Notes: generated from the letters alone by a model not told the origin. A stretch of DNA of 20,000 nt from Chiloscyllium plagiosum (GCF_004010195.1 NC_057749.1:17524645-17544644); one strand, 5' to 3'. Counted from the first letter of the stretch, positions 1,017-20,000 are shown. Numbers and translations are program-made.

Positions 1017-1374
1017 AGGGCAATAGTGGAACTGAGAAAGTGTTGTTAAAGACATGTGAAAACTTGCAATGAAGAGCAGTCAAAGTGGCAGGCTGGGTTT
1101 GTAGGAAGAAATAAAGCTAGGATCCGAGTGTAATTTCAGATTCCTTTTCTTGTCTGCTTCAAAAAATTGTGAAAAAACTGTGAACACAAATTCACTTTGA
1201 ACATTATTCTCACCTGAATACATTGCCATGTCCTCCCTTGGCATATTCCAGTTTGTCAGTAGAATGCAGACTTTACATAGGAGATCTGACAAATCACATG
1301 GCCAGAAGCTCACCCATCGATGAATTCAAACTACTTTTTAACACCCAGTGGTAAAGTAAGTCCCACAGATAAGC

Positions 1375-1494
1375 AAGGGCTTTTGCCCGAAACGTCGATT
1401 TTACTGCTCCTCGGATGCTGCCTGAACTGCTGTGCTCTTCCAGCACCACTAATCCAGAATCTGGTTTCCAGCATCTGCAGTCATTGTTTTTACC
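1375..1494 (+). mobile_element. Short PLE 3'-terminal fragment starting at hammerhead stem II (CUGANGA core absent)
   Basis: AAGGGC-TTTT-GCCC-GAAACGTC...GGATGCTGCCTGAACTGCTGTGCTCTTCCAGCA...CCAGCATCTGCAGTC, homologous to the copies at 8269-8351, 11917-12011 and 12250-12365. Confidence 0.75.
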
Positions 1495-1599
1495 CCCAGA
1501 CATGTTCCTGACCCGCTCAGCCGTCTACGCACAACGTGAGAACCTGTGGTCAGTTAGCTCTGTGGATCTGTGTATGTAATGTGACAATGCTGTCACTTT

Positions 1600-2081
1600 G
1601 CAGAATTATATTTTATTTTGCTCAAAACATGCATAACCTACAGTCAATCCATGTCAGATTCTGTAAATCCCACTTTAGAAATAGAACTATTTCTGACTCA
1701 AGACAGGGACACAGACAGACTTTAACCTCACACCTTTAATACGTTGTCTGAGCTGTGATGCCCCTATTGTTAGAAAAACTGAAGTTATCTTGAGAATATG
1801 ACTTAAAAGGAGTTCTGGGATTTACATATTAATGAACTGACACTAGAAAAACCATTCTAAAAGATAAAAGACATAATCTAAGTTTGTTTGATGTATTTCA
1901 GTTGCATGACACTGTAACCCTTTGCTATAAATTCTGTATCCTATGGTCCTGCTCCACAACCACCTGATGAAGGGGCAGTGCTCCGAAAGCTAGTGCTTCC
2001 AAACAAACCTGTTGGATTATAGGCTGGTGTGTGTGATTTTTAACTTTGTTCACCCCAGTCCATCACCGTCTCATCTGAATC
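1600..2081 (+). mobile_element. PLE 3' UTR / pseudo-LTR fragment nested in the solo LTR
   Basis: 8-bp TSD GTCACTTT (1592-1599 and 2082-2089). Homologous, in reverse orientation, to the 3' UTR of the GIY-YIG-bearing element at 7927-9100. Contains a hammerhead motif. Confidence 0.8.
1961..1995 (+). ncRNA. Minimal type I hammerhead ribozyme motif (PLE-type), intact core
   Basis: CAC|CTGATGA|A|GGGGC-AGT-GCTCC|GAAA|GC|TA|GTG. Stem I CAC/GTG, stem II 5 bp (one G-U), helix III replaced by the palindrome AGCT. Predicted cleavage after A1992. Confidence 0.75.
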
Positions 2082-2401
2082 GTCACTTTAAGAGGTTATT
2101 TTGAAGAGAGGTTGTAAGGCAGAGGTGTTGAGCTGGCTACTGAAGACCACTTGAGTGGACAGCATATGAGGCCTTGGGTTTTTTTAATGCAGCCTGAATG
2201 GGGGTGGCCAGCTTTCTCAGATTAGGATTTCTTGGTTTTGGTTTTTCAGTAGCGTCAAAGCTATTGGAGTCTCAACGGAATTGGAAGCTTCAATGAAAGT
2301 CTCCTGGCTGCTATTCTCTCTGAATGTTCTCTTGCTGTTGTTTTCCCCCCTGGATGGGAGAATTGCATGTGAGAATCTGTGTCTGAATTTACCTTTTTGC
2401 C

Positions 2402-2500
2402 AAGGTTTCAGTCTTGTTGAACTCTGTTGCTTTTCCTATCTGACTGGGGTCAGTTTCACACTGATCACCTTGAGAAACCCTCTGAAGTTGGATATTGCTT
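2402..2500. repeat. 99-nt dispersed duplicate, copy A, followed by a 30-nt LINE RT fragment (2501-2530)
   Basis: 90/99 identical and ungapped to 3490-3588. Bases 2501-2530 translate HKFANDTTIV, resembling the KFADDTT RT motif. Confidence 0.85.
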
Positions 2501-2834
2501 CACAAGTTCGCTAATGACACCACCATAGTCAATGTTTATGGGGTGTTACTATACTGAAACGGTTAATTAGTGATAGATACTGTTTCTATTATTTGGTCAA
2601 GTTTTCCAGCAGTTGCTATTCTACATTCTATCTTTTGTCTGTATTTTAACCAGAGTGTTTAAATAAATTGTGTTTTGCTTTACATGGAATGGATTGACCA
2701 GTCACATCACATCTGGAATATACACCACACCAACTTTCAAAATAAGCAAAAGTTAGGGTCCAGGCTACCCACATAAATACTTTGAGGGGGGTCTGGCTTG
2801 GTCCAATACAGTAACCTGTCTCCTGAGGGTATGT

Positions 2835-3007
2835 CTTTGAGGAGAAAGTGAGGTCTGCAGATGCTGGAGATCAGAGATGGAAATGTGTTGCTGGAAAAGC
2901 GCAGCAGGTCAGGCAGCATCTAGGGAACAGGAGAATCGACGTTTCGGGCTAATCCTGTTCCCTAGATGCTGCCTGACCTGCTGCGCTTTTCCAGCAACAC
3001 ATTTCCA
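2835..3007. mobile_element. Palindromic short PLE-derived insertion
   Basis: Perfect 59-bp inverted arms 2874-2932 and 2953-3011 with a 20-nt spacer. Exact 16-bp TSD TCTCCTGAGGGTATGT (2819-2834 and 3008-3023). Confidence 0.9.
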
Positions 3008-3335
3008 TCTCCTGAGGGTATGTGTATGTCTCCTGTGATTCGTTTATTTCACTGTGGAACCAACAGGATCTGCAACTCGATTTCTCATGGCCATTTGGTC
3101 AGTTTTGACACTGTTTGGCTGATCAAACTATTAAACAAGCAGGGAAGGTGATGCCACAATCTCCACCAATAGGCAATCCTGACTGAAGTCGTGTTGAGAT
3201 TTCCTGTTAAGCAGTTCAGTGGGTCTGATACTGCAACATTGCACTGTCTGCAGCACATCCATTAACACTGAAACATCAGCAACAAATCCCACCCTTGGAC
3301 AAGGCACTATATCTGTGCAATAGAGCTGGTAATAT

Positions 3336-3434
3336 AGAGCTTTGACAAAGGGTCAGTTAGACATGAAACGTCAGCTCTTTTCTCTCCTTACAGATGCTGG
3401 CAGACCTGCTGAGATTTTCCAGCATTTTCTCTTT
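3336..3434 (+). mobile_element. Short PLE 3' fragment with a decayed hammerhead
   Basis: 9-bp TSD TGGTAATAT (3327-3335 and 3435-3443). AGAGCT|TTGACAA|A|GGGTC-AGTTA-GACAT|GAAA|CG|TC|AGCTCT has a 6-bp stem I and two substitutions in the core. Confidence 0.75.
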
Positions 3435-3489
3435 TGGTAATATCCTAATTGGATTATAGACTCATGTTTGTCTATCATCTTTTCTGTCA

Positions 3490-3588
3490 AAGGTTTCAGT
3501 CTTATTGTGCTCTGGTGCATTTCCTATCTGATTGGGGTCAGTTTCACACTTATCACCTTGAGAAACCCCCGGAAGTTGGATATTGCTT
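3490..3588. repeat. 99-nt dispersed duplicate, copy B, directly abutting the 5' end of the Rex1-like LINE
   Basis: 90/99 identical to 2402-2500. Confidence 0.85.
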
Positions 3589-4358
3589 GGAAAAAGGACC
3601 TGGAAAAATGGTGCACTGAGAACAACCTAGCTCTCAATGCCGGCAAAACCAAGGAACCCTCATTATTGACTTTGGCGTGATGTTACTCATGCTCTCCCTA
3701 CACATTAACAGCACAGAGATGGAACAAGTGCAGAGTGTCAAGCTCCTGGGAGTGGTCATCCACAACAAGCTTTCTTGGACTCTTCATGTGGCTGCATTGG
3801 TTACAAAGGCTCAACAACGTCTCTTCTTCCTCAGGCAGCTGAGGAAATTTGGCATGACGGTGAATCCCCTTGCCAACTTTTAAAGGTGCACCATCGAGAA
3901 CATTCTGTCTGGATGCATCACTACCTGGTATGGCATCTGTACCACTCAAGATCGGAGACAGTTACAGAGAGTGGTGAACTCGGCTCGGACATTACAAAGG
4001 CCAACCTCCCATCTATAGAATCCATCTACCAGGCCCGCTGTCAAGGAAAGGCCCTGGGCATTCTCAAAGATCCACCCCACCCTGGCAATGTTTTTCTACA
4101 ACCTCTACCATCGGGGAGAAGGTACAGAAGCCTGAACACAGTCAGATATAGTTTCTACTCCACTGTTGTTAGAATACTGAATGGACTCTCAAACTCTTAA
4201 CATTCGCCTGTCCCTGTGTTTTTGTTTTTGCCGCTGTTTACCTATTTATTTACTATCTATGCTTCTTTGCGATCTGTCTGTATTGCTCACAAGACAAAGC
4301 TTTTCACTGTGTCTCAGTACACGTGACAATAAATTCAATTCAATTCAATTCAGTTCAA
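3589..4358 (+). mobile_element. 5'-truncated Rex1/Babar-like LINE (RT thumb plus DUF1891-like C-terminus), pseudogenised
   Basis: Across frameshifts and a stop it reads KDLEKWCTENNLALNAGKTKE / EQVQSVKLLGVVIHNKLSWTLH..KAQQRLFFLRQLRKFG / LPSIESIYQARCQGKALGILKDPPHPGNVFLQPLPSGRRYRSL. It ends in AATAAA plus a (TTCAA)n tail. Confidence 0.85.
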
Positions 4359-4524
4359 CTATTTGCAGCTTCCCAGGCTCTGGGTAAATTCTTCCGTTGG
4401 GGTAAAATTTGCTGAGGACAACGGTTTGTGCTGTGGACAGGGGGGGGATTGTGTAGCAGAACATCACAAAAAGGAGGTAACCTCCCATCACAAACTACAT
4501 AGACCACGTGTTTCCAAGCCTTTT

Positions 4525-4840
4525 GGGGCGGCACGGTGGCTCAGTGGTTAGCACTGCTGCCTCACAACACCAAGGACCCGGGTTCAATTCCTGCCTCGGG
4601 CAACTGTCTGTGTGGAGTTTACACATTCTCCCCGTGTCTGGGATGCTCCGGTTTCCTCCCACAGTCCAAAGCTGTGCAGGTCAGGTGAATTGGCCATGCT
4701 AAATTGCCCCTAGTGTAAGGTGCATTAGTCAGTGGTGAATGTAGGGGGGTGGGTTGCTCTTCAGAGGGTTGGTGTGGACTTGTTGGGCCGAAGGGCCTGT
4801 TTCCACGCTGTAGGTAATCTCATCTAATCTAATCTCTAAT
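4525..4840 (+). mobile_element. HE1-type V-SINE (tRNA-derived), near full length
   Basis: A box TGGCTCAGTGG, B box GGTTCAATTCC, V-domain (TGTGTGGAGTTTACACATTCTCCCCGTGTCTG...CTCCGGTTTCCTCCCACAGTCCAAAG), CR1-like tail GAAGGGCCTGTTTCC and (TAATC)n end. Possible TSD CTTTT (4520-4524 and 4841-4845). Confidence 0.92.
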
Positions 4841-5254
4841 CTTTTCACACAAGGACAGTCCCAGTGAGGAACAAACTGCCTAAGGAATAATCCCAGCCCA
4901 TCATTGGAACCCTTCAAGACTGGGCATGCAGAGGTTGGGCTGTGTTTTGGCAATATTTCCATGGCTTTCATCTGCTGAAGATTTTTCAGATTGTGTGCCT
5001 TTATCTTGGGCTATTCTGCCACTTCACAGCGAATGAGGGAATGACTCTTTGAAAAGGCACTGCCTTCATCTGCTCAGGTATGGGAGTCAAGTCCTACAGA
5101 TCGAATGGATGGTCTCTGCTAGCTATTTCAAAATGGCTGCAACGTGATGAAACGGGCTGGGTTTGGGGCTGGGGGTGATGGTGGGGTACAGCTGATTGTG
5201 GTAATGAGCCCCTGTGCTATCCTCTTGTTAGGAAGATATAATGCATGGAGTGTC

Positions 5255-5490
5255 TGTGTTCATGAATGGATCCGAGACCCTGGGTTCACACCTCTCACGG
5301 CAGTTTGAGAATTTCAGCTCAGTTTAATAAAGCTGGAAATAAAAAGAATGCAATATGAGTAAAAGTGACTGTAAAACTGTCAAAAAAACCCATAAAAATT
5401 TCAAAAAGTGACCACAAAACTGTCAGACTGTTGTTAGAAAATAAACCTGCTTAATCTGGTCTGGAGATACATCATTCACAATCATTGAGT
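5255..5490 (+). mobile_element. Highly decayed tRNA-derived SINE, related to 17630-17950
   Basis: CTGGGTTCACACCTCTCACGGCAGTTTGAGAATTT...AATAAAGCTGGAAATAAAAAG...AAAGTGACCACAAAACTGTCAGACTGTTG resembles the head and body of that family. Confidence 0.5.
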
Positions 5491-6100
5491 TTTGAGTCAG
5501 TTAATATTAGCCTCTTTAATATGAATGCACTGAATTTTGAGACTTGTATAAATGACTGTGTGTCTTGCTTTGTACATACTGACTGACTGAGCTGCCTGCT
5601 GTGGTGGGCTCCTCTTCCCCATTGTATTGGTCCTGAGTCCAGTGGTACCTATTGGCCTCAAATCTGCGTCAGAACCTCACCAGAAATTGGGCAGGAGTTA
5701 GTTTTGTCAAGTGTCGTAGTGAGTGTCTCTCTCTGGGGCCTGGTGAGTTTTCTATGTAATTGTTCCAAACTCAATCATTAACTATGCCACACGCCTCATG
5801 ACCCATGCCCTATGATGCTCCCGCCCACCCATCCAATGGACATCTGGTCTTCTGACCACCCACCTCCCCCCACAATCACCCCGCACCCAACCCTGTACTC
5901 GCTGAAACCAGATGTATTCCCACCTTCCGAGAGGGAATGCTCAATGCTCAATGCCCAGGGGGAAGTGGCAAATAAGGGAATGTCTGTGCCCCACTTTACA
6001 CACAGGGACCTGGAGGTCATGTTGGGCACTCAGATATGGAGGAGGCTCATTCTCATCCTACCCTCCAGGACTGACAGAGGAGACCATGACAGCACCCCCT

Positions 6101-6310
6101 GCCAGCCTGGGTCAGAGGTTGGCAGCTTGGGTCAGAGGTTGCCAGTCTGGGTCAAAGGTTACCAGCCTGGATCAAAGGTTGCCAGCCTGGGTCAGGGATT
6201 GGCAGCCTGGGTCAGAGGTTGCCAGCCTGGGTCGGAGGTTGGCAGCCTGGGTCAGAGGTTGCTAGTCTGGTTCAAAGGTTACCAATCTGGATCAGGGGTT
6301 GGCAGTGTGG
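6101..6310. repeat. 20-bp minisatellite, about 10.5 copies (GCCAGCCTGGGTCAGAGGTT)
   Basis: Exact 20-bp periodicity visible from 6101. Confidence 0.95.
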
Positions 6311-7064
6311 GCAGTATGATCTCCGGTATCTGGATGAATGGCCACCACTCAGGATGAGAATTCTCTGTGCTCTTCAATGACCTGCTCCTCCACCAGGGTA
6401 AGTGCAGCCACCTTTTCTCCAATAACTCACCCTGTCTCCATCTCTGCTCCTGTACCCACCTCCCACCAAGGCCCAGGCTTACCCCCCTCACCATTGCCAG
6501 CACCATCTTCCCTTGCTTACTGTCACTGTGCCCCCACACACACCACTACCCCTGCATGTCCTCTCTGCCCTGCCTACTCCCTCCCCTCCCCCTGCTTCCT
6601 CTCCTTTCCTAGTGGGGAGCAGCTGAGCTCCCAGTGGGACAGGACAAGTGAGATTGTTGGTGGTGTCTCTGACATTCTGCTCCCCAATGCAGACAGCACT
6701 GGCCTGGACTGACATTGGAGGCTGTTGGTAACTCTGTCCCAGGAGCCACTGACTGAAGCCTGGTGCCCTTGGCTTGGTTTAGGATCACTCCCTGAGCCCT
6801 GGCTCCCTGTTTGCTGCTCCCGTGGGGGGTTTGCTGTGGGAGTGGGGGACAGTGATGTGGCACACTGCCGGATTGAAAGGTGCCCACCCCCTGAGCTGGT
6901 GATCACTGACCAGCTTAACCAGCTGCCTGGGTCTGTGTCTGTGTCTGTGTCACACTACACAGCCACGGGGAAGGGGGCTGTCAGTCTGTTAGCTCTGGCT
7001 GAGGGAGGGAGGTGTGGGAAGGTGAAGAAAGGTGAAGGAGGGATGCTGTAGGAGTCTGAGTAGG

Positions 7065-7295
7065 TTCAGGGTGAGAGAGGGAGGGAGGGTGTGAGGGAGT
7101 GTGAGAGGGAGTGAGGGAGTGTGTAAGGGTGGGAGTGGGTGTGAGAGAGGGATTGAGTGAGGGAGGGAGTGGGTGTGTGAGGGGGGATTGGGTGTGTGAG
7201 GGAGGGATTGGGTGTGTGTTGAGGGAGTGGGTAGGTGTGTGAGTGAGGGAGGGAGTGGGAGAGTGAGTGAGGGATTGAGTGAGTGAGTGAGTGCT
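7065..7295. repeat. G/A/T low-complexity tract (GAGT/GAGG/GTGT cryptic repeat)
   Basis: Essentially C-free on the + strand, with recurring GTGTGAGGGAGGGATTGG-like words. Confidence 0.9.
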
Positions 7296-8144
7296 GAAAG
7301 AGCAGGTGAGGAGCAGTGAGATGCAACCTGGTCCAATCCAGGAGCTGATGTGACTCTGTGTGCAGTGTTCCTATAGCAGCACTCCGAGAAAGGCAGGGCC
7401 ACATGGAGAGTGAGTGAGGGAGTGGGCAGGAAGGGGATTGTGACGTGTTCCTGATGATGTAGTGAGGCTGCTCTGAGCTGGATGCCAATGCCCGTGAACA
7501 TGGGGTATGAACGATGCCCACATTCCCCACTCCCTTCATGGGGTATGTCCTGAGACGTTGGTGTTAGGTGTCCAAGGTAGAGAGAGCTGGAGGAGCGGGC
7601 AGTGAGTAGGAGTCACTGGGTAAGCTGCTCAGACTTCCACATCAGGAATTCTGAGAGTCTGGTTTCTCTCCAGGGTGGGAGAATGGGAAGGTGCATTAGC
7701 GTGAAGTAAGATTAATTAATAATGAGAGTAACAGTCAGTGATTAATCCCCATTAATTGACTCTCACCTACTGAAAATCCTGTCTGTGGGAGTTGGTTGAA
7801 AAATGCAAGGTTCCAGTCACAATGTTGAGAAAGACCTCATTGGGCACCATGCCTGATTTTCCCACATCATTTGGGAGGTTGGGAAGTTGGAATGTTATTC
7901 ACCAGAAGAGCTACAGATATTCCTGACTTAAAAATCACGCAACACAGGTTATAGTCCAACAGCTTTGTTTGGAAGCACTAGCTTTCGGAGCGCTGCTCCA
8001 TCAGGTGATTGTGGAGAATAAGATTGTAAGACACAGAATTTATAGCAAATATTTACGGTGTGATGCAACTGAAATCATACATTGAAAAAGACCCGGATTG
8101 TTTGTTAAGTCTCTCATCTTTTAAATTGGGCATGTTGGTTTCAG

Positions 8145-8349
8145 GAGAAAGTGAGGTCTGCAGATGCTGGAGATCAAAGTTGAAACTTTATTGCTGGAAC
8201 AGCACAGCAGGTCAGGCAGCATCCAGGGAACAGGAGATTCGACGTTTCGGGCACAGGCCCTTCCTGAAGAAGGGCCTGTGCCCGAAACGTCGAATCTCCT
8301 GTTCCCTGGATGCTGCCTGACCTGCTGTGCTGTTCCAGCAATAAAGTTT
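8145..8349. mobile_element. Young palindromic PLE-derived insertion nested inside another PLE
   Basis: Perfect 83-bp inverted arms 8181-8263 and 8269-8351 with a 5-nt loop. Exact 14-bp TSD CATGTTGGTTTCAG (8131-8144 and 8350-8363). Confidence 0.93.
8261..8294 (+). ncRNA. Minimal type I hammerhead ribozyme motif, intact core
   Basis: TTC|CTGAAGA|A|GGGC-CTGT-GCCC|GAAA|CG|TC|GAA. Stem I TTC/GAA, with the palindrome ACGT in place of helix III. Predicted cleavage after C8291. Confidence 0.75.
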
Positions 8350-8611
8350 CATGTTGGTTTCAGTCCTTTCATATGTAAATCGCAGAACTTTCTTAAAGTT
8401 ACATTCTCAAGTGAACTTTAACAATAGGTGCCATGTCGGCCCAGATAATGCATTGAAGGTGTGAGGTGCCCTGTGTGAGGCTGTCAGTGCCCCAATGTTC
8501 AGACTGATCTTATTTCTAAAAAAAAGGGATTTACAGAATCTTACATGGATTCATGCAGTTTCTGAGCAAAATAAAATGTAATTCTGCAAGTACAAATTCA
8601 CCCCACAAACT

Positions 8612-8802
8612 TATGTGTGTGTGTGTGTGTGTGTGCATGTGTGGATGTGTGTATAAAATGGTATAAGTCTGTGAGAGGGTGCGTGTGGGGGTATGGGTCT
8701 GAGTGTGGGGGATGTGTGTGTGTGAGCATATGAGAGAGAGAGGGTCCACGTAAGTGTATGGGTCTGTAGGTGTGTGTGCGCGCGTCTGCGTGTGTGTGTG
8801 TA
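8612..8802. repeat. (TG)n-rich compound microsatellite in the PLE 3' UTR
   Basis: Several TG runs and a short GA run. Confidence 0.9.
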
Positions 8803-8815
8803 TAGTGCAGTGGGG

Positions 8816-9083
8816 TCACCTGTAGTATGACATGAACCGAAGGTCCCGGTTGAAGCCATCCCCATGGGTACTGAATTTGCCTATCAGCCTCTATTCGGCC
8901 ACTCTGTTGTTTTCTGTCCCAAAGTCTGCCTCGGAGGACGGTCACCCAAAGATGTGAGGTTGAATGTCCCGGACTGCTAAAGTGTTCTCTGACTGGGAGG
9001 GAACACTCCTGTCTGTTGATTGTTGTGTGGTGCCCATTCATCTGTTACTGTAGCCTCTGCTCGGTCTCACCAATGTACCTTGC
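8816..9083 (-). pseudogene. C-terminal GIY-YIG endonuclease remnant of the PLE ORF
   Basis: YIGETEQRLQ*QMNGHHTTINRQECSLPVREHFSSPGHSTSHLWVTVL, a frameshift, then RVAE*RLIGKFSTHGDGFNRDLRFMSYYR*. YIG at 9069-9077, a GFN variant of the terminal GLN motif, and two internal stops. Confidence 0.88.
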
Positions 9084-9764
9084 TGAGAGCATCTTGCCTG
9101 CAGATATTCCTGAGAATGTTACCCTGCACTTTCAGCTTCATGCCAGTAGATGGTGGGCTTGCTCCACAATGACGAGAATTCTCATTAATCCCCATCTCCC
9201 ACATGGACCCAGGAAAAGCAAACAGTCCCTTCACTTTGACTTTTGCTTGTTTCTCTGTATGTATCTTTGTCCCGTTATAATAGGATAATTTGAATTGTTG
9301 TCCAGGATCCTTCTCTTCCATCCTATAAACTGAAGTCACTGTTTTTGATTCAGTCCCTTTCCCAGTTCAAACAGCCCTTCCTAATCCTAACCTGATACAT
9401 GAGGTTGGTGCAGGTTGTGTTTGTGTTTGGATTTCCCTGTTCCTGCGAACCATTCCAGTGACCGTGGTTGATGTGTTGTACTCCCAGGATGTTGATCGCT
9501 CAGAGGTGCCCCCCTCCCTGCAACTAGCAACGTTGAGAAATGGAATTATCCAGGTCACTTCCAAACAGCTGCACTGGGAGTCCACCTCAGCAGCTACCCC
9601 TGTCAGTGTAATGATGTTGTCAGACCGAGCTCCCCCGTGTTCCTGTGAAGTTACAGTGAGACGGAGGAAGATGAAAGAATGACTTTCAGAAAGCAGAGAA
9701 GCAGTACAGTCAGACAGGCAGGGTTTTGTAATGCAACGTTGGTAGTGTTGTCACATTGAGGGGG

Positions 9765-10205
9765 TGAATGGGACTGAACAGAGTCAATGCAGGAAGGATG
9801 TGCATGAAGACCGACGAGTCCAGAACCAGGCAGCACACTCTAAGGATCTGAGGACAGCCCTGTCGGACTGAGAGAAACGTCTCCACCCCGAAGGTGATGA
9901 GGCTCTTGGTTTCACTAAACGCAGAAAGCAGCTGAGGCCAAAACATTGTATGATTTCAACAAGGAGTTGGATATCGCATTTGGGGCTAAAGGGATCAAAG
10001 GAGTTGGGGGGAAAAGCAGGAACAGACCATTGAGTTGGATGCCAAGAGTGTGGTGCTGGAAAAGCACAGCAGGTAAGGCAGCATCTGAGGAGCAGGTGAA
10101 TCGATGTTTCGGAGAGTTGGATGGTCAGCCATGATCATACTGAATGGTGGTGCAGGCTCGAAGGGCAGAATGGCCTCCTCCAGCTCCTATTTTCTGTGTT
10201 TCTAC
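9765..10205 (+). mobile_element. CR1 LINE 3' fragment with a nested PLE piece
   Basis: DFNKELDIAFGAKGIKG, and 3' UTR CAGCCATGATCATACTGAATGGTGGTGCAGGCTCGAAGGGCAGAATGGCCTCCTCCAGCTCCT. Confidence 0.85.
10042..10113 (-). mobile_element. 72-bp PLE 3' fragment
   Basis: 10-bp TSD GAGTTGGATG (10032-10041 and 10114-10123). Homologous to the palindrome arms and truncated in hammerhead stem II. Confidence 0.85.
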
Positions 10206-10519
10206 ATGTCAATGTAACGTGGTGCAGCCATCAATGAGCTAAATATACTTCCCTTTCAGCTCATTATAAATATTTCATAGACATTGTAAACAGCTTCAAA
10301 TGGCACTGCTTTATAAGCTATCAAATATTATTGACAATTTCTCTTTTGTGACTGAACTCATCACAACCCCTCCGAGAAAAAACATTTCTAAAGCGAAAAG
10401 CTTTTCCAGTTCCTTCCTCACAACTCCAGCCTGGAAATCAGCTAGACGGCCTTTCCCTTTAAATATCCCAGCAATGAACCAGCGATGAATGTGTTTTTCA
10501 CTCACTCAGGACCTTGATC

Positions 10520-10790
10520 TCCCACTGGTGACCAACTGTGACTCCTAGTCCAGCAATCGCTCTATTTTAAAATCTGTAATTTCACATCCCACCTTGACCT
10601 CAGACCTTTCTCTCTCCCTGACCTTCTCCAGCTCCTCAAGGTGTCTGGAACTTCTCTAACTCTGGCCTTTTATCTATCTTCAGAGGACCTGACTCTGAGC
10701 TCTTTCCTATCTAATCCTCCCTCACTTCTGTTAAAATATTCTTCATTAAAACCTACGTCCTAGACCTTTCCTAATATCACATTTTGTGGC
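10520..10790 (+). mobile_element. Old L2 LINE 3' fragment
   Basis: GTCCAGCAATCGCTCTATTTTAAAAT...CCTTCTCCAGC...AACTCTGGCCT...TTAAAACCTAC matches my recollection of L2 ORF2 ends. Highly diverged. Confidence 0.55.
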
Positions 10791-10804
10791 AGGTTGTCAT
10801 ATTT

Positions 10805-11091
10805 GAATCATAGCATCATGTACATTGTGGAAGCAGGCCGTTCAGCCCATCAAGTCTATACCAACCCTCTGAAGAGCATCCCACCCAGACCCAACAGCGT
10901 AGCGTATCCCTGCATTTCCCATGGCTAATCCACCTAACCTGCACATCTTTGGACTGGGGAAGGAGACTGGAGCACCCGGAGGAAACCCATGCAGAGACTG
11001 GGAGAATGTGCAAATTCCGAGGCTGGAATCAAACCCAAATCCCTGGAGTTGTGGGGCAGCAGTGCTAACCACTGAGCCGTCGTGCTCTCCC
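10805..11091 (-). mobile_element. HE1-type V-SINE
   Basis: The minus strand reads GCACGACGGCTCAGTGGTTAGCACTGCTGCC...GGGTTTGATTCC...GCACATTCTCCCAGTCTCTGCATGGGTTTCCTCCGGGTGCTCC. Homologous to 4525-4840. Confidence 0.9.
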
Positions 11092-11129
11092 AGTATGTGT
11101 ACAGTAAAGTGCTGAATGACCATGTGAGG

Positions 11130-11305
11130 TCTCTCTCTCTCTCTCTCTCTCTGTTTCTCTATCTTTCTATCTCTTTCTCTCTATTTCCCTCTCTCTTTCT
11201 CTCTATGTCTTTCCCCACTCTCTCTCTCTGTCTCTGTCTCTATTGCTCTATCTTTCTATCTCTCTCTCTCTCTATCTCTCTCTTTCCCTCTCTCTCTCTC
11301 TCTCT
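11130..11305. repeat. Imperfect (CT)n microsatellite
   Basis: About 175-bp pyrimidine tract. Confidence 0.95.
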
Positions 11306-11907
11306 GTTGTGGCTGAGGATCAGATGTGCTGTCAGTGACTGCACCCACCACAATGCACCAGGCAGGGTACACAGCATTTCGACTGAGTCACCCCCTGTGA
11401 GAATGAACCTCCTGCTGGCAGGAATGAGTCTTGGGGAAATGACAACTCACTCTTTACTGCTCATTCAAACTAAGCTGCAGGTGGCAGCAGTGATGTTCAA
11501 AGATTTACACAAACCCAAGCTGGATTAAAGCACGGCAAATTACAGCAAGTGTACTTAATGGAATTGATGTCAGGTTAACATGAGCATTTGAATCTCTGCC
11601 ACTCTTGGTCAGTGATTAAAATATGATTCTGTGTGATAGAAGCTGACTGATCTATTTGCAAGTTAGTAAGCTCACAGCTGATGCTGCAGAATGTAACATT
11701 TCCATTCCCTTTGTACATCATTGGAGTCTCTGTTGTAACTGACTGTTACTGCCTGACACCTCAATACTGCCATCGTTTACGTTGTTACAAACGATGCGTA
11801 ACTGAGACCGTCTCTTAAATATTGAAGTTCACCCCCATGCTGCAGTCATCCGTAGGTGAAACAGGTTTGGGTTTTTTGATACAGAATGTGGTTAGCTCAG
11901 TCCATGA

Positions 11908-12006
11908 AGGATTCAGTTCCTGAAGAAGGGCTTATGCCCGATACGTCGATTCTCCTGCTCCTTGGATGCTGCCTGACCTGCTGCGCTTTTCCAGCAACAC
12001 ATTTTC
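11908..12006 (+). mobile_element. Short PLE 3' fragment with a hammerhead carrying GAAA->GATA
   Basis: 14-bp TSD AGCTCAGTCCATGA (11894-11907 and 12007-12020). TTC|CTGAAGA|A|GGGC-TTAT-GCCC|GATA|CG|TC|GAT. Confidence 0.88.
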
Positions 12007-12205
12007 AGCTCAGTCCATGACATGCCTGATGTTTGCTGTCAGTAACAATGGGAGTGCAGTTTGAATCCCCACAGAGACTGAGGTACGTGTCTAATCCCAC
12101 AGCAATAGCTTGGCATGATTAACAACCCAGTGAGGATGCCAAGTGACAGAGAGAGAGAATGCTAATATAAACTCTCTTCCTCATATGGCTTTTTTCTCTC
12201 TGTCC

Positions 12206-12372
12206 AAGGAGCAGGAGAATTGACGTTTCGGGCATGAGCCCTTCAGTGATTCCTGAAGAAGGAACGTTGATTCTCCTGTTCCTTGGATGCTGCCTGACCT
12301 GCTGTGCTTTTCCAGCAACACATTTTCAGCTCTGATCTCCAGCATCTGCAGTCCTCACTTTCTCCTAGAAGA
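12206..12372. mobile_element. Asymmetric palindromic PLE-derived insertion
   Basis: 16-bp TSD TTTTTTCTCTCTGTCC (12190-12205 and 12373-12388). A short inverted left arm and a full right arm ending CTCACTTTCTCC. Both hammerheads are internally deleted. Confidence 0.88.
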
Positions 12373-12771
12373 TTTTTTCTCTCTGTCCTCAGCCCTTTCC
12401 ACCAACTCCATCCCTTCCCCCCGAGCTACCATCTCAGGTTAATGTTCACAATCAGAGTGTTCTATTTCCCCCTCAGCTCAGCCTCTAGCTGATGTTCCCT
12501 GTCATCTAAGTGTCTGCCCCAGCCTTTCGACGTGTGCAACTTGGCGTCTGGTTGTATTGATGTTTGATTCTGGAAGTCGCTGCTGCTCCCTGTGACATCA
12601 GGAAGAATGAGGCAGACATAAGCTTCTAGCCCCACACTCTGTCCGTGACCAAGACCCCTTCCCAAAACCACACCCAACTCTGCAACTCTATCCACCTCAG
12701 CCTCACTTCAGTCTATTTGCTGTCCAGTCCCTCGTCCGTGCTGTCAGTACGTCTAGATTGGACTATTCTAT

Positions 12772-12989
12772 CGACCTGTGACCTCTTTTCCTTCACAATG
12801 CAGACATCTGACCTTGAACAACATCCTGCTTCTCTTTGAATAATCTCACACCCCTCCCCGTTGTTCACTGACTGAGTGAGCGACCTGTGACCTCTTTTCC
12901 TTCACAATGCAGACATCTGACCTTTGAACAACATCCTGCTTCTCTTGAATAATCTCACACCCCTCCCCGTTGTTCACTGACTGAGTGAG
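12772..12989. repeat. Head-to-tail duplication of a 109-bp unique segment
   Basis: 12772-12880 and 12881-12989 are identical except for two single-T indels. Confidence 0.95.
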
Positions 12990-13036
12990 CTCAGGGTTAA
13001 TATTCTCATCGTCTTGTTGAAGTCTGTCCATGACCT

Positions 13037-13420
13037 TGAGGTTGAGAGGTGACCTTATAAAGGTTTATAAAACCATGAGGGGTATAGATAAGGTGAACTG
13101 CAGGTGTCTTTTCCCTGGGGTGGGGGATTTCAAGACTAGGGGCACATTGTTAAGGAGAGAGGAGAGAGATTTAACAAAGACATGAAGGACAGATTTTTTT
13201 TAACACAGAGCATGGCTCAGTTACGGGATGAACTTCCAGAGGAAGTGACAGATGTGGGCACAGTTACAACATTGAGAAGACATTTAGATAAGTACATGAG
13301 TAGGAAATGTTTGGAGGGACATGGGTCCAGTGCAGGCAGGTGGGACACGTTTAGTTTCGGATTATGATCGACGTAGACTGGTTGGAGTGAAGGGTCTGTT
13401 TCCATGCTGAATAACTGAAT
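13037..13420 (+). mobile_element. CR1 (HER1-like) LINE 3' fragment
   Basis: RLRGDLIKVYKTMRGIDKVN...FKTRGH...DELPEEVTDVGTVTTLRRHLDKYMSRKCLEGHG, and tail GAAGGGTCTGTTTCCATGCTG. Confidence 0.9.
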
Positions 13421-13664
13421 AACCTCTCCCCACTATCTCTGTCGACTCTCTAATGGCTCTGTTCCCTTTGTCTCTGGTTTGGTGTTTACTCCCTTGACTG
13501 GCAGAGTCAATGTAAACAAGCTTCAGGCTGAATGTAATCCACACACCAGGCAGATACATAGGTCACTTATTCACCTCCTGTTGAATGTGAGCCATCTCCC
13601 GTCCCAAACTTCAAAATCTTTTTGGTGCTGTTTATATTGAAAGCACAGCTCCGAAAGCCTCCCA

Positions 13665-13740
13665 GGATTCAATAGCTCCTTGTGAAATACCTTGGAACAT
13701 TTTGCAATGTTAATGGATCTGTCCCTCAATAAGTTGTTAA
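13665..13740 (+). mobile_element. Possible L2-type 3' tail remnant
   Basis: GCTCCTTGTGAAATACCTTGGAACATTTTGCAATGTTAATGG...AAGTTGTT resembles the L2 tail (TGTGAAGCGCCTTGGG...AAAGGCGCTATATAAA). Confidence 0.4.
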
Positions 13741-14281
13741 TGTATAAGGCAACTGGGAATGAGGATAAGCAGAAATCAACTCCAGCGCTTTCTCCAAACC
13801 ATTCCCAATCCATCAATGCCATTTTGAAGGTAGGGTGTCTGCTTTCCACAGTATACCAAGTGTCTTCTCAATGATGATTTATACTGTGTTAAAATAACCT
13901 TTCTCAGTTCATGGTAAAAAGCCCTTGAGGGGTGTCTTGTAGTTTGATTGACGATTTACCTTGTGTGTGTGAATGTTCTGAATATTCCTATCTTCCTATT
14001 TTAACACCAGTGGCAGATTGATTAGATACTTTCAATAGCGCCGCTTGGAAAATTGTAGGATTCATTATTTGAAATTCTTCTTCTCATTGACACTAGCTTA
14101 TTCATTTTGTGTAACAAGTCCATCGAAGTGCAGTGCAGTTGTCGCTGTTGGTTTGGTGGAGTTCCGAAGTCACTCGCTATATTGTTCATACCCACACTCT
14201 GACCAGCGACCCAAGAACCAATTAGAGAGTTGTCATCAGACAGATCACCTTCCACATCCACTACTGGTTGCAATTGCATGA

Positions 14282-14347
14282 GCTAATCATTTCCTTGTTG
14301 CTGATCAGTCACTTGTTACTAATCAGTCACTTGTTGCTGATTAGTTC
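14282..14347. repeat. 18-bp tandem repeat, about 3.7 copies (CTTGTTGCTGATCAGTCA)
   Basis: Full units start at 14294, 14312 and 14330. Confidence 0.9.
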
Positions 14348-14369
14348 CCTGTTGGCAGTTGAATATTAT

Positions 14370-14634
14370 CGAATTTTGAGAAGATGTGTAGCTCAGGTTG
14401 AGGTTCTGGATGTAGATTTGCTCACTGAGCAGGAAGGTTTGTTTTCAGACGTTTCATCACCAGACTAGGTAACATCTTCATTGAGCCTCCGGATGAGGCA
14501 CTGGTGGTATGGCCCGTTTTCTATGTATATGTTTGAGTTTTCTTGGTGCCCACTCAGACTCACTGAAGATGTTACCTAGAATGTGCTGAAACATCTGAAA
14601 ACGAACCTTCCAGCTCAGCGAGCACACCTACATC
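14370..14634. mobile_element. Older palindromic PLE-derived insertion of another family, with two decayed hammerheads
   Basis: Imperfect inverted arms at about 14406-14486 and 14558-14637. 14-bp TSD with 2 mismatches (14356-14369 and 14635-14648). Motifs TCA|ATGAAGA|T|GTTACC-TAGTCT-GGTGAT|GAAA|CG|TC|TGA (- strand, 14445-14484) and TCA|CTGAAGA|T|GTTACC...|GAAA|CA|TC|TGA (+ strand, 14560-14598). Confidence 0.82.
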
Positions 14635-14813
14635 CAGTCGAATGTTATTTTATCACACCTTGGTGCAGTGCCATCTGTCCTTACAGATCCCCCCCACTGC
14701 TTCCAAAGCAACAGTGTTAGCACAACTTACAATGAGTTTCAGTAATTTAAAAAAAAATACAGAAATTCCTTCCTCCATTCTTTGTTTGTAAAGACAATCC
14801 TTTTCACAATTCA

Positions 14814-14909
14814 GTCAAGAATGTGGTGCTGGGAAAGTACAGCCAGTCAGGCAGCATCCGAGGAGCAGGAGAATCAGTTTTTCAAGCATAAGTTCTTCAT
14901 CAGGAAAGG
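14814..14909 (-). mobile_element. Short PLE 3' fragment with a decayed hammerhead
   Basis: 15-bp TSD with 2 mismatches (14799-14813 and 14910-14924). The minus strand begins TTCCTGATGAAGAACTTATGCTTGAAA. Confidence 0.8.
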
Positions 14910-14969
14910 CCTTCTCACAACTCAACCAAGTAAATTACAAAATAAATGTGGCCTTTACTTTGGAAGGAA

Positions 14970-15058
14970 TCTAAACAGAAAATACTGAAGATATGCGGCA
15001 GGTCTGACAGTATCTGGAGTGAGAGAGTTGTCTTAATGTTTCAGGTCTCTGATCCTTC
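14970..15058 (-). mobile_element. Very decayed PLE 3' fragment
   Basis: AAACAGAAAATACTGAAGA..GCAGGTCTGACAGTATCTGGAG..AATGTTTCAGGTC..GATCCTTC is similar to the reverse complement of 3336-3434. Confidence 0.55.
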
Positions 15059-15230
15059 CGCATGCTGCAGCAGGTTATGAATACATAAAAGGAAGATGGT
15101 ACAGGTAAACGTAGGTAATAATGGGACACATCATGAAACAGAACAAATGAGCCAAGCTCGAAATGGTTTCAATGCTGCTGTCTGGAAAATGGCAGCAATG
15201 ATTACTGTCTTAAATTGTAGAATTCAGTGT

Positions 15231-15467
15231 AGGAGCAAATTATAGCAGATGCTGGAATCTATACTGAAAACAACAAATGCTGGAGATCACAGCAAGTCAG
15301 ACAGCATCCATGGAGAGAGACCAAGCTAATGTTTCAAGTCCATTTCTCTCTCTCTCTGTGTCTCTCTCTGTCTCTCTATCTCTGTCTCTCTCTCTGTCTG
15401 TCTCTATCTCTCTCTTTCCCTCTCTCTCTATGGATGCTGCCTGCCCCACAGTATTTGTTGTTTTCAC
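15231..15467. mobile_element. Old palindromic PLE-derived insertion with an internal (CT)n expansion
   Basis: Arms TGAAAACAACAAATGCTG..CAGCATCCATGGAGAGAG and CTCTCTATGGATGCTG..CAGTATTTGTTGTTTTCA. 16-bp TSD with 3 mismatches (15215-15230 and 15468-15483). CT tract at 15343-15429. Confidence 0.72.
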
Positions 15468-16164
15468 TTGTAGAACTCGATGTTGAGGGTGGTAAGTTGC
15501 GAAGGGCTGAGTTAAAAGATACAGTGCAGTTCCTGGAGATTCAGTTGAATTTCATTGGAAGGAAGGATTTTCAAGTGATCATCGTGATTGGGATCAAGTT
15601 GATCCACTAGGATAGGAAAATGAAATGGGGATATTGTGAACTGGGTTTGATCTATGACAAAGGGAAGGACTTGCATGACCTACTGATTATTCAAGTGGCA
15701 TTTTGATATTTTTCTTCAAAGTAACTGTAATTGTGGCTATTATTCACACAGACTGATCTCAGTGTTTAAATGGCTTGGAACTGAATGTAAGATCAGAGGG
15801 AAAAGGGTTTCAATGAACGGCCAACAGCAGGTATCACACAGAGGAACAAGTTTCAATGAAAGCACAGCTGCATTAAATACATTATCAGCAATTCATTTCC
15901 AATCAACAGTAATTACTGGAAGCCTTTAAGCATCTGTTGGTTTGGTAAACTTAAACAAATCAGATGTTGCTTGTCTTGAAATGATTTCCATTGCTAATTA
16001 TTACTGCAGGAGCTAACAGAAACCTCTTCAAACAAATATCAGCAATTAACAATGACAGTGACACGCCATTGGAAGCAGCTGGCTGCATTGGTGCAGATTA
16101 CATTGGCAAGAAACCTGATCATTTTCTTGTAGTCCTGAGCAGAGCAACATAGGTCCATACGTGT

Positions 16165-16245
16165 TGCAAACTGATTGTGCTAGTGGCAGTGTGCAAACTG
16201 ATTGTGCTAGTGGCAGTGTGCAAACTGATTGTGCTCGTGGCAGTG
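16165..16245. repeat. 27-bp tandem repeat, 3 copies (TGCAAACTGATTGTGCTAGTGGCAGTG)
   Basis: One mismatch, in copy 3. Confidence 0.95.
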
Positions 16246-16599
16246 ACTGTAACATCATGGTAGACCCAGAGACTTGGGGGCGAGATGTGGTGTAAAGGGT
16301 TAATTTAAGATGTGATTTGCTAATGAGATACAGCGCACCTCAACCTAAAGCAATACAATGTCATGTGATCCTACTCTCATACAAGCTCATGGTGAGAAGA
16401 AGAAGCAGTGAGATGTTTCTCAAATCGAGTTAATTCTTTCCTCAGCCAACTCTGTAAATGTTCTTTCACATCACAGCAACACCAAGAATACTATAGTGAC
16501 CACTACACTGGTCTGTTACTGTTGACTGACCAAGATCAATACCACACAGAGGAAGTTGAGTTGGAGAGACCGAGGATTTAAATCCAGGAATTTGGGGGA

Positions 16600-17063
16600 G
16601 AGAGGATGTTACTCGGACTGGAGAGTTTGAGTTATGAGGAAACGCTGAATAAGCTGAGGCATTTTTCACCGGAGTGTAGGAGGTTGAGGGGTGACCTTAT
16701 GGAGGCTTATAAAATCATGATGGATACAGGTAAATAGCAAAGCTCTTTTCCTTAGGTTGGGGGAGTTTAAAACTAAGGGGCATATTTTTAAGGTGAGAGG
16801 AGAAAGATTTTAAAAAGACGCAACAGACAACTTTTTTACACAGAGCGTGGTTCGTGTGTGGAATGAACTGTCAGAGGAAATGGTGGATGCAGGTACAGTT
16901 ACAACATTTAAAAGACATTTAGATAGGTCCATGGACAGGAAAGGTTTAGAGGGATATGGACTAAGTGCGGACAAATGGGACTCGTTTAGTTTGGGAAACT
17001 TGGTTGGCATGGATGTGTTGGACTGGAGAGTCGGTTTCTGTGCTGTGTGACTCTAAGACTCTG
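16600..17063 (+). mobile_element. CR1 (HER1-like) LINE 3' fragment
   Basis: GLESLSYEETLNKL..RRLRGDLMEAYKIM..VVRVWNELSEEMVDAGTVTTFKRHLDRSMDRKGLEGYG, with tail TGACTCTAAGACTCT. Homologous to 13037-13420. Confidence 0.92.
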
Positions 17064-17208: not shown

Positions 17209-17320
17209 AAGATGTTACCCAATATGCTGACGAAACGACTGGAAATGAACCTTCCAGCTCAGCGAGCAAACCTACATCTAGAACCTCAACCTGAGGGCTA
17301 CAAATCTTCTCAAAACTTGC
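17209..17320 (+). mobile_element. Short PLE 3' fragment (same family as 14370-14634), truncated within the hammerhead core
   Basis: AAGATGTTACCCAATATGCTGACGAAACGACTGG...CCTTCCAGCTCAGCGAGCAAACCTACATC. Confidence 0.78.
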
Positions 17321-19418: not shown

Positions 19419-20000
19419 CTTTTAATTTCAAAAATATACTTTATTCATAAAATTATTTGGATATCTATACAATTGGTCATGCCATTCTTATGCACACATT
19501 CCATTTCTTTACATACAGAGATCTGAATTAATCATTCATATACAGGTCTGTATGTTTACCATCCCTATATGTAGTTGAGGCGTCAGCGGAGCCCCATTAC
19601 TGCGTGGGCCCCCTGTTCTTCTTTAGGCAGGCAGATGTTAAACGGTGGTCTTTCCCCACCGCGCCTTGGCGGCAGCTTCCCCAAGCTTCAGCACGTCCCT
19701 CAATACATAGTCCTGGACCTTGGAATGTGCCAGTCTGCAGCACTCAGTCGGGGTCAACTCCTTCAGCTGGAAGATCAACAAGTTTCGGCCAGACCAGAGA
19801 GCGTCCTTCACCAAGTTGATGATCCTCCAGGCACAGTTGATGTTCGACTCGGTGTGCGTCCCGGGGAACAGGCCGTAGAGCACAGAGTCCCGAGTCACGA
19901 CGCTGCTCGGGACGAACCTCGACAAACACCACTGCATTCCTCTCCAGACTTCTTCTGCGTAGGCACATTCCAGAAGGAGGTGTGTGACAGTCTCGTCCCC
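19419..20000 (-). mobile_element. 3' end of a Tx1/L1-clade LINE that continues beyond the window
   Basis: ORF2 C-terminus, a 3' UTR of about 200 nt, AATAAA at 19440-19445 (-) and a short A-rich end. Confidence 0.88.
19638..20000 (-). CDS. Tx1-like ORF2 C-terminus (partial; end of the CCHC zinc knuckle)
   Basis: Open for 120 codons from the window edge: GDETVTHLLLECAYAEEVWRGMQW...KDALWSGRNLLIF...AAAKARWGKTTV*. The ETxxHLLLEC and WxxRN motifs are typical of L1/Tx1 ORF2. Confidence 0.85.
   Translation of the reverse strand, partial: GDETVTHLLLECAYAEEVWRGMQWCLSRFVPSSVVTRDSVLYGLFPGTHTESNINCAWRIINLVKDALWSGRNLLIFQLKELTPTECCRLAHSKVQDYVLRDVLKLGEAAAKARWGKTTV

What the first reader, a model, noticed from the sequence alone, without database searches (positions are those of the whole stretch)
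2819..15483. Miniature tail-out palindromic PLE insertions with long TSDs: a MITE-looking retro-system
Seen: five insertions (2835-3007, 8145-8349, 12206-12372, 14370-14634, 15231-15467) consist only of two oppositely oriented copies of the PLE 3' terminus. They are joined at or near the hammerhead and flanked by 14-16 bp TSDs. In the two youngest the arms are 100% identical within an insertion but differ between insertions (GAGATGGAAATGTGTTGCTGGAAAAGCGC versus TGAAACTTTATTGCTGGAACAGCAC). Junctions and arm lengths differ each time. Inference: each palindrome forms de novo at insertion, with both nicked target strands priming reverse transcription on the same source RNA (twin priming), rather than being a fixed MITE. 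Inverted pseudo-LTRs are known for PLEs, but ORF-less palindromes as a frequent product appear poorly described to me.
Basis: partly seen in the sequence, partly recalled or inferred. Interest (0 to 1): 0.75.

Follow-up and report, generated by a model that had tools for sequence, protein, structure and literature searches.

The report
Head-to-head mini Penelope retroelement insertions
These short hairpin-shaped inserts in a shark-like genome are two head-to-head stubs of the end of a Penelope-like jumping gene, apparently built anew at each landing; this is a known layout shrunk to its minimum, and its abundance could help settle how these elements make inverted repeats.

Summary
The five palindromes are real, with 14-16 bp target duplications (three perfect, two decayed), and come from three Penelope-like element (PLE) families. 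Empty copies of one host site carry a single TSD copy (294 raw reads). Centres differ. No shared centre dominates: the best-supported alternative centre has 4 reads, against roughly 80,000-fold summed arm depth. A fixed MITE is therefore not supported.

The layout is the textbook PLE one cut to its minimum: an inverted 5'-truncated copy, head to head, with a 34-43 nt 'tail' on one arm only. Single-arm TSD-flanked stubs with the same two outer ends sit alongside.

Best reading: both nicked target strands prime cDNA at the element's two start sites, and the short cDNAs are end-joined near the hammerhead. The arms overlap, which fits dual priming (two templates) better than classic same-RNA twin priming. 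Same-RNA use is not shown. Self-priming fold-back, the published proposal, fits 4 of 5 copies; copy 2 argues against its simple form.

No autonomous partner was found for the three families. Verdict: new variant of a known kind.

The parts
2819..2834 (.). c1 left TSD copy (16 bp; right copy 3008-3023)
   Evidence: 16/16 identical, 0 of 200 shuffles
2835..2949 (-). c1 long arm, family A: tail to hammerhead stem II 3' strand (+103 to -12 relative to the GTC cut site)
2950..2952 (.). c1 3-nt filler at the centre
2953..3007 (+). c1 short arm, no tail (+5 to +59; a further 4 nt shared with the TSD)
   Evidence: 59/59 complementary to the long arm; microhomology
3008..3023 (.). c1 right TSD copy
8131..8144 (.). 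c2 left TSD copy (14 bp; right copy 8350-8363)
   Evidence: 14/14; the empty site has one copy
8145..8263 (-). c2 tail-bearing arm, family A (+98 to -23)
8261..8349 (+). c2 tail-less arm with a complete minimal hammerhead motif (-31 to +58/60); shares 3 nt (TTC) with the other arm at the centre
   Evidence: upstream family sequence from the loose ends
8350..8363 (.). c2 right TSD copy
12190..12205 (.). c3 left TSD copy (16 bp; right copy 12373-12388)
   Evidence: 16/16
12206..12244 (-). c3 short arm, family A, with an internal outer end (+19 to -23) and 3-nt microhomology to the TSD
12249..12372 (+). c3 tail-bearing arm, stem II largely deleted; 4-nt filler at 12245-12248
12373..12388 (.). c3 right TSD copy
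14356..14369 (.). c4 left TSD copy (12/14 to 14635-14648)
   Evidence: 7 of 200 shuffles reach this score
14370..14548 (-). c4 tail-bearing arm, family B, reaching about 100 nt upstream of the cut site
14559..14634 (+). c4 tail-less arm; 10-nt filler at 14549-14558
14635..14648 (.). c4 right TSD copy (decayed)
15215..15230 (.). c5 left TSD copy (13/16 to 15468-15483)
15231..15344 (-). c5 tail-bearing arm, family C
15345..15429 (.). (TC)n array at the c5 centre
15421..15467 (+). c5 tail-less arm, decayed, with an internal deletion
15468..15483 (.). c5 right TSD copy (decayed)
11908..12006 (+). single-arm family A stub, no tail, with a perfect 14-bp TSD (11894-11907 / 12007-12020)
10042..10113 (-). 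single-arm family A stub, no tail, 10-bp TSD
   Evidence: 5 of 200 shuffles
14812..14909 (-). single-arm family A stub, no tail, decayed TSD of about 15 bp
1372..1490 (+). single-arm family A stub with tail, no convincing TSD
17209..17320 (+). single-arm family B stub with tail, no convincing TSD
7925..9107 (-). host PLE (a fourth family) into which c2 is inserted: broken GIY-YIG C-terminus at 8822-9107, 3' UTR, minimal hammerhead and tail
   Evidence: tblastn to RT+GIY-YIG proteins, E 3e-19 to 3e-22
1560..2050 (+). paralogue of the host PLE 3' end, empty at the c2 site
   Evidence: alignment gap of 219 = 205 insert + 14 TSD

Best explanation
Each palindrome is one PLE insertion event in which both copies are extremely short. 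The GIY-YIG endonuclease cuts both target strands 14-16 bp apart. Each 3' end primes reverse transcription of the pLTR end module, helped by 2-4 nt of pairing. One end starts at the distal site (about +98 from the hammerhead cut site, giving the tail). The other usually starts at the proximal site (about +60, no tail). Both cDNAs stop within or just upstream of the hammerhead motif, probably because the template begins close upstream (run-off from the 5' pLTR) or the RT stalls there. The two cDNA ends are then joined by microhomology or with a few filler bases. The templates are most simply two RNAs of the same active subfamily in a dimeric particle, or two pLTR copies of one tandem RNA (dual priming). 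If only one strand is extended, a single-arm stub with a TSD results. Shown: structure, TSDs, empty site, two outer ends, varied centres. Inferred: enzyme, priming order, number of RNAs, reason for shortness.
For: The empty site has one TSD copy: gap of 219 = 205 + 14 against a window paralogue. Joint 8130>8350 'skips 219, both 14' is seen in 294 raw reads and in contigs of all three other runs. Two outer ends occur in the window: 4 of 10 family A arms near +98 to +104, 5 of 10 near +58 to +64, 1 of 10 at +19. Both ends are major read classes: 28,360 loose ends with unlike flanks at 8143/8144, and 8,001 at 8351. Tail-less single arms with TSDs show that the proximal end is a primed end. Exactly one arm carries the tail in 5 of 5 palindromes (34-43 nt in c1, c2, c4, c5). 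Microhomology at short-arm outer ends is 4, 2, 3, 3 and 0 nt (12 against 1.8 expected, P about 6e-5). In c2 each arm holds sequence the other lacks, so neither is a simple copy of the other. A PLE protein cleaves and extends both strands in vitro, starts at two adjacent internal sites that define the tail, uses uncleaved RNA and is modelled as a dimer (PMC11167929). Penelope is transcribed from a promoter inside its pLTR (PMC2377424 passages).
Against: 4 of 5 copies have nested arms, which fold-back explains equally well. c2's centre also reads as a 3-bp stem with a 5-nt loop on the bottom strand. Only five palindromes were seen whole, and only 15 of 965 joints were shown. One centre form (8224>8312) occurs in three runs, at contig depths of 1,004 and 328 (single-copy depth about 34 in X5 and 5-22 in X9), so some centres may recur or be multi-copy. 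No RT ORF was linked to families A-C. [quoted passage not shown] 24,693 reads run upstream of -31 with 0.61 consensus agreement, so not all copies stop at the hammerhead.
Confidence: 0.55

Rival explanations
1. Self-priming fold-back: one cDNA (or an antisense template) folds back near the hammerhead and copies itself. The hairpin is integrated, and endonuclease trimming removes the tail from one end.
For: Proposed for head-to-head PLE repeats in PMC3846280 (discussion). The tail is ascribed to EN-mediated resolution in PMC8557442. Arms are nested in c1, c3, c4 and c5, and perfectly identical in c1 and c2. c2's centre can be drawn as a 3-bp stem with a 5-nt loop.
Against: In c2 the arm that reaches further inward lacks the 38-nt tail that the other arm has, so simple copying cannot supply it. 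Three centres carry filler rather than a priming stem. Tail-less ends also occur on single arms. c3's arms differ at a site polymorphic in about half of family reads (8302; weak, since a later transition could explain it).
Confidence: 0.22
2. One reading: one RNA molecule, one pLTR copy, primed from both target strands and copied twice over the same stretch.
For: Arms are identical within c1 and c2 but about 9% different between them (10 of 110). c2's alleles are a minority of family reads (about 16-30% at several sites). The one-tail rule would fit ordered use of two sites on one RNA.
Against: Twin priming on one L1 RNA gives adjacent fragments with at most 1-10 bp overlap (PMC11702581 passage; PMC2837659). 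Here 40-85 nt are copied twice, which needs displacement of the first cDNA. Identity is equally expected from two RNAs of one active locus.
Confidence: 0.12
3. A fixed palindromic master (true MITE, or a SINE-like hairpin RNA) is itself mobilised.
For: The hairpin shape and TSDs. One centre form is seen in three runs at raised contig depth. Short reads under-sample hairpins (general knowledge).
Against: All five centres differ, TSDs are 10-16 bp and unrelated in sequence, and ends are asymmetric. The best-supported alternative centre listed has 4 raw reads. At most 3,283 of 156,846 reads lie end to end on the stretch, which caps copies of c2's whole structure at roughly 1,200-16,000 against 80,000-160,000 arms (a loose bound).
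Confidence: 0.07
4. Two separate insertions at one spot, or later deletion, recombination or gene conversion within longer inverted PLE copies.
For: The region is dense with PLE ends (14 events in 20 kb). Microhomology-mediated deletion of PLE copies is described (PMC3846280).
Against: One TSD frames both arms. The arms always belong to the same family, and in c1 and c2 to the same haplotype. All five are head to head. c1 and c2 are too young (perfect arms and TSDs) for much later reshaping.
Confidence: 0.04

Closest known systems
Endonuclease-positive PLE insertion units with an inverted pLTR and a one-sided tail (Pen2a_Av etc., PMC3846280; Fig. 2 of PMC8557442; D. virilis Penelope, PMC2377424)
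   Same: Head-to-head inverted 5'-truncated copy, 30-40 bp tail on one end only, variable TSD (8-10 bp in the rotifer examples), small overlap or filler at the inverted junction.
   Different: Here both copies are cut down to 40-180 nt with no ORF, TSDs are 14-16 bp, and the family has on the order of 100,000 arms.
PAc (Poseidon from Anolis carolinensis) in vitro, PMC11167929
   Same: Two adjacent RT start sites downstream of the hammerhead define the tail; both DNA strands are cut and extended; uncleaved RNA is the template (the arms here span the cut site).
   Different: The passages read do not treat palindromic products. Initiation there is described as non-homologous to the target, while 2-5 nt microhomology is seen here. 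The clade of families A-C is not established.
Minimal hammerheads (min-HHR) in metazoan PLEs, PMC4209133
   Same: CUGANGA core, unpaired base before stem II, G-C first pair, palindromic helix III bases. That paper reports many solitary motifs and, in Schistosoma, pairs 100-700 bp apart on opposite strands.
   Different: The text read does not describe those pairs as TSD-flanked palindromes, gives no mechanism for them and does not cover sharks.
L1 twin priming and dual priming (PMC2837659, PMC11702581)
   Same: Inverted cDNAs inside one discrete TSD (12-18 bp for L1), microhomology at the second primer, end-joining at the centre.
   Different: Twin-primed L1 arms do not overlap beyond a few bases. 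Here both arms start at the element end and overlap almost wholly, as in the postulated two-RNA dual priming.
Non-LTR retrozymes (bioRxiv 10.64898/2026.07.22.740005)
   Same: Short ORF-less hammerhead-bearing PLE derivatives in vertebrates, one chondrichthyan included.
   Different: Retrozymes are defined as direct tandem repeats; these are inverted pairs or single stubs.
MITEs
   Same: Short, non-coding, hairpin-forming, high copy, TSD-flanked.
   Different: No fixed terminal inverted repeats, no fixed centre or length, no constant short TSD.

Membership tests
EN+ Penelope-like element insertion | PLE-type RT plus GIY-YIG ORF linked to the terminal module | tested here: inconclusive
   Shown only for the host family (8822-9107). 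For family A, a 40-aa arm peptide found one unrelated host-gene model, and none of the 138 proteins searched (137 besides that one) gave an ORF match to the arms. Families B and C were covered only by that tblastn.
EN+ Penelope-like element insertion | Minimal type I hammerhead motif in the pLTR | tested here: met
   Core motif found by pattern at 8264, 14563 (decayed), 14872(-) and, in the host family, 1964; features match PMC4209133. No Rfam hammerhead family hit. Cleavage was not tested, and family C shows only the 3' half.
EN+ Penelope-like element insertion | 30-40 bp tail on one end only | tested here: met
   34-43 nt in c1, c2, c4 and c5; c3 has a tail on one arm; both ends are major read classes.
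EN+ Penelope-like element insertion | Inverted 5'-truncated copy adjacent head to head | tested here: met
   5 of 5 palindromes.
EN+ Penelope-like element insertion | Variable-length TSD made at insertion | tested here: met
   10-16 bp. The empty site with one copy was shown for c2 only, in paralogous host copies.
EN+ Penelope-like element insertion | Partial tandem (direct pLTR) arrangement | not tested
   None seen in the window; no whole genome is held.
MITE | Fixed terminal inverted repeats and uniform length | tested here: not met
   Asymmetric ends, lengths 167-265 bp, five different centres.
MITE | Constant short superfamily-specific TSD | tested here: not met
   10-16 bp TSDs unrelated in sequence.
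MITE | Many copies sharing one internal junction | tested here: not met
   No centre joint above 4 raw reads among the 15 best-supported of 965 joints. A minority of multi-copy centres is not excluded.
Non-LTR retrozyme | Two or more hammerhead units in direct tandem | tested here: not met
   No such tandem array in the window.
L1-type twin priming product | Two inverted, non-overlapping fragments of one RNA | tested here: not met
   The arms cover the same 40-85 nt.
L1-type twin priming product | Both arms from the same RNA molecule | not testable with these tools
   Sequence identity cannot separate one RNA from two RNAs of one locus.

The most novel reading that the evidence does not exclude
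Shark PLEs routinely integrate through a dimeric particle that primes both target strands. Each half uses a different one of the two start sites with 2-5 nt of target pairing, on the 5' pLTR of short or freshly started transcripts, so ORF-less run-off palindromes are a main product. The many thousands of young copies would then be a natural record that decides between dual priming and self-priming as the origin of PLE inverted repeats and explains the one-sided tail.
Probability: 0.3. Interest if true: 0.6.

Novelty: new variant of a known kind. Interest (0 to 1): 0.38.

Why it matters
How PLEs make their inverted repeats and one-sided tail is named as unresolved in PMC8557442, and PMC3846280 proposes self-priming. 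Tiny, young, very numerous palindromes show both primed ends, the centre and the TSD within one read length. A census could therefore test dual priming against fold-back without new experiments. They also look like MITEs or microRNA hairpins (one search gives sub-threshold miRNA matches) and could be misannotated as such. No function for the host is suggested.

Tried and rejected
No whole genome is held, so no census of copies was possible. Pattern scans for shark-derived contigs gave 0 loci in viral contigs and 9 in metagenome contigs, all 9 chance matches limited to the pattern. Rfam gave 17 matches to E 5, none a hammerhead family and all under their gathering scores. Folding five arm sequences as RNA gave z-scores from -0.94 to +0.13 and no complete hammerhead monomer fold, which is uninformative for a dimer-type motif. 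Pfam found nothing in the 61-aa GIY-YIG fragment or the 40-aa arm peptide. The word-index search with the GIY-YIG fragment scored none of 8 candidates. The full phmmer search found 18 proteins, of which P0008 and P0014 are repeat-driven false hits. No autonomous partner was found for families A-C. An assembly artefact was considered and rejected: TSDs, fillers and aged arms argue against it, although no listed contig spans c2. Hammerhead cleavage as the cause of the inner ends was rejected: none of 10 family A arms ends at the cut site. Literature: 9 searches found no paper devoted to ORF-less PLE palindromes or to shark PLE structure. Subscription papers and Repbase/Dfam entries were not searchable, and no supplements were read.
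Full report
Observation. All five inverted pairs are present. c1 (2835-3007) has 59/59 complementary arms and c2 (8145-8349) 83/83. c3, c4 and c5 are older: 22/25, 69/79 and 40/46. TSDs are 16/16, 14/14 and 16/16 for c1-c3, each reached by 0 of 200 shuffles. They are 12/14 for c4 (7 of 200) and 13/16 for c5 (best window 1 of 200). The five come from three families. The centres differ: 3-nt filler (c1), 3-nt overlap (c2), 4-nt filler plus a stem II deletion (c3), 10-nt filler (c4) and an 85-nt (TC)n array (c5). The genome is shark-like by inference: a Chiloscyllium gene model carries a family A peptide, and close relatives of the host element's ORF are named from sharks.

The window holds 14 PLE-end insertions: 5 palindromes, 7 short single arms and 2 longer copies of a fourth family. 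Four of the 7 single arms have TSD candidates: 14/14 at 11908-12006 (0 of 200 shuffles), about 15 bp decayed at 14812-14909 (0 of 200), 10/10 at 10042-10113 (5 of 200) and 9/9 at 3336-3434 (9 of 200). The other three have none that convinces. c2 lies inside a longer PLE on the minus strand. Its broken GIY-YIG C-terminus (8822-9107) matches RT-bearing proteins at E 3e-19 to 3e-22. One of them (P0012) has a cysteine motif upstream of GIY-YIG like that described for Neptune/Nematis PLEs (PMC8557442 section 6). This host carries the same kind of minimal hammerhead and end module. Families A-C are assigned to PLEs by that shared architecture, not by a linked ORF; no partner ORF was found.

Empty site. 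A paralogue of the host at 1560-2050 aligns across c2 with one gap of 219 nt, which is the 205-nt insert plus one 14-nt TSD. Four runs were laid on 7760-8600. The same joint (8130>8350, skips 219, 14 letters fit both sides) appears in 294 raw reads from 132 starts, and in 1, 1 and 5 contigs of the other three runs (two of them other species labels). These are mostly paralogous host copies, so they show the pre-insertion sequence rather than an orthologous allele. Only c2 was tested with reads.

Fixed MITE test. In raw run X19, 156,846 reads were laid. Summed depth on mirror bins of the two arms is about 81,000, against 0-1.8 on the unique flank. The call found 965 joints and showed 15, plus 12 filler rows. 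Seven different centre-type joints appear among these, the best with 4 raw reads. Only 3,283 reads lie end to end on the stretch, which caps c2-like whole copies at about 1,200-16,000 (loose). Against this reading, one centre (8224>8312 with 5 letters between) occurs in three runs, at contig depths of 1,004 and 328, far above single-copy depth, though with only 1 raw read. It may be a recurrent microhomology junction or a multi-copy form. Short reads under-sample hairpins (general knowledge).

Two outer ends. Relative to the hammerhead cut site, 4 of 10 family A arms end near +98 to +104, 5 near +58 to +64 and 1 at +19 (ends of the divergent single arms read from the alignment). Reads agree: 28,360 loose ends at 8143/8144 with consensus agreement 0.33-0.34 (unrelated flanks) and 8,001 at 8351 (0.39). 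A further 11,113 at 8340 (0.49) probably mark a divergent subfamily. In all 5 palindromes exactly one arm has the tail, which is 43, 38, 39 and 34 nt in c1, c2, c4 and c5. This is the 30-40 bp one-sided tail of PLEs (PMC8557442 section 6 and passages). Frangieh et al. map it to two adjacent RT start sites, with a protein that cuts and extends both strands, uses uncleaved RNA and is modelled as a dimer (PMC11167929, first two of four parts read). Short-arm outer ends share 4, 2, 3, 3 and 0 nt with the TSD (P about 6e-5), which suggests primer pairing. That departs from the non-homologous initiation reported in vitro.

Inner ends. All 10 family A arms end between about -35 and +5, none at the cut site, so ribozyme cleavage does not set the end. 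Genome-wide, 24,693 reads continue upstream of -31 with 0.61 agreement, so a part of the family is longer. [quoted passage not shown] Run-off from the 5' pLTR of the transcript is therefore a plausible cause of the stubs. This is inferred; stalling at the structure is the alternative. Very short PLE insertions are known (median 128 bp de novo in Chlamydomonas; PMC9977147 passage).

Mechanism. Best reading (0.55): both target 3' ends prime cDNA at the two start sites, and the two short cDNAs are end-joined. The arms copy the same stretch. Fold-back self-priming (PMC3846280 discussion and passages) fits the four nested copies (0.22). c2 is the discriminating case: one arm reaches 8 nt further inward and the other 38 nt further outward, so neither is a plain copy of the other unless the tail was trimmed afterwards. 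c3's arms differ at a site split 49:51 in family reads (8302), a weak hint of two templates. That the palindromes form at insertion, by any of the first three routes, I put at about 0.9.

Known versus new. The head-to-head inverted truncated copy, the one-sided tail and variable TSDs are standard for PLEs. Solitary min-HHRs and opposite-strand pairs 100-700 bp apart were noted in Schistosoma (PMC4209133, first two of four parts read). Vertebrate retrozymes are direct tandems (bioRxiv 10.64898/2026.07.22.740005, part 1 and passages). PMC8969392 passages add only the standard description. Earlier notes of this scan on the same genome reach similar readings; they are unchecked and not counted as support.

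Verdict: real, a new variant of a known kind, interest 0.38. Its value is as a large natural data set for an open mechanistic question.

Noticed in passing
window 7925-9107 (-) and 1560-2050 (+): Two copies of a fourth PLE family with a long 3' UTR and its own minimal hammerhead. The first keeps a broken GIY-YIG C-terminus followed by a (CA)n stretch. Read depth at its end reaches about 24,000 in run X19.
   Followed up: partly
joint 7945>8143: An opposite-strand joint between the host family's 3' end and the family A tail appears in 16 raw reads and in 16, 9 and 4 contigs. Family A may insert at or near host-family ends; a rough estimate puts this within a few-fold of chance.
   Followed up: no
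window 11908-11916 and 12245-12249: The bases just upstream of the hammerhead differ from the family's majority upstream sequence. They could be filler, micro-inversions or a spliced leader (D. virilis has an intron ending at the hammerhead).
   Followed up: no
window 12257-12263: Hammerhead stem II is deleted in c3's long arm, apparently across the small hairpin.
   Followed up: no
window 3336-3434 (+) and 14973-15060 (-): Single-arm stubs related to c5's family; the first has a 9/9 TSD candidate.
   Followed up: partly
P0001: A shark gene model includes a 27-aa stretch translated from a family A arm; exonisation or misannotation.
   Followed up: no
window 12772-12990: Two-copy 109-bp tandem duplication, 98% identical.
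   Followed up: no
window 6100-6305; 16165-16245; 14294-14345: Minisatellites of period 20, 27 and 18.
   Followed up: no
window 2400-2510 and 3485-3590: A repeated stretch of about 100 bp, seen by eye; the second copy abuts a LINE-like fragment at 3590-4350 ending in short pentamer repeats (family not tested).
   Followed up: no
window 4527-4840; 13035-13410; 16590-17040; 19420-20000: By eye, a tRNA-type SINE-like element, two CR1/L2-like 3' fragments and a LINE-like coding fragment; names recalled, not tested.
   Followed up: no
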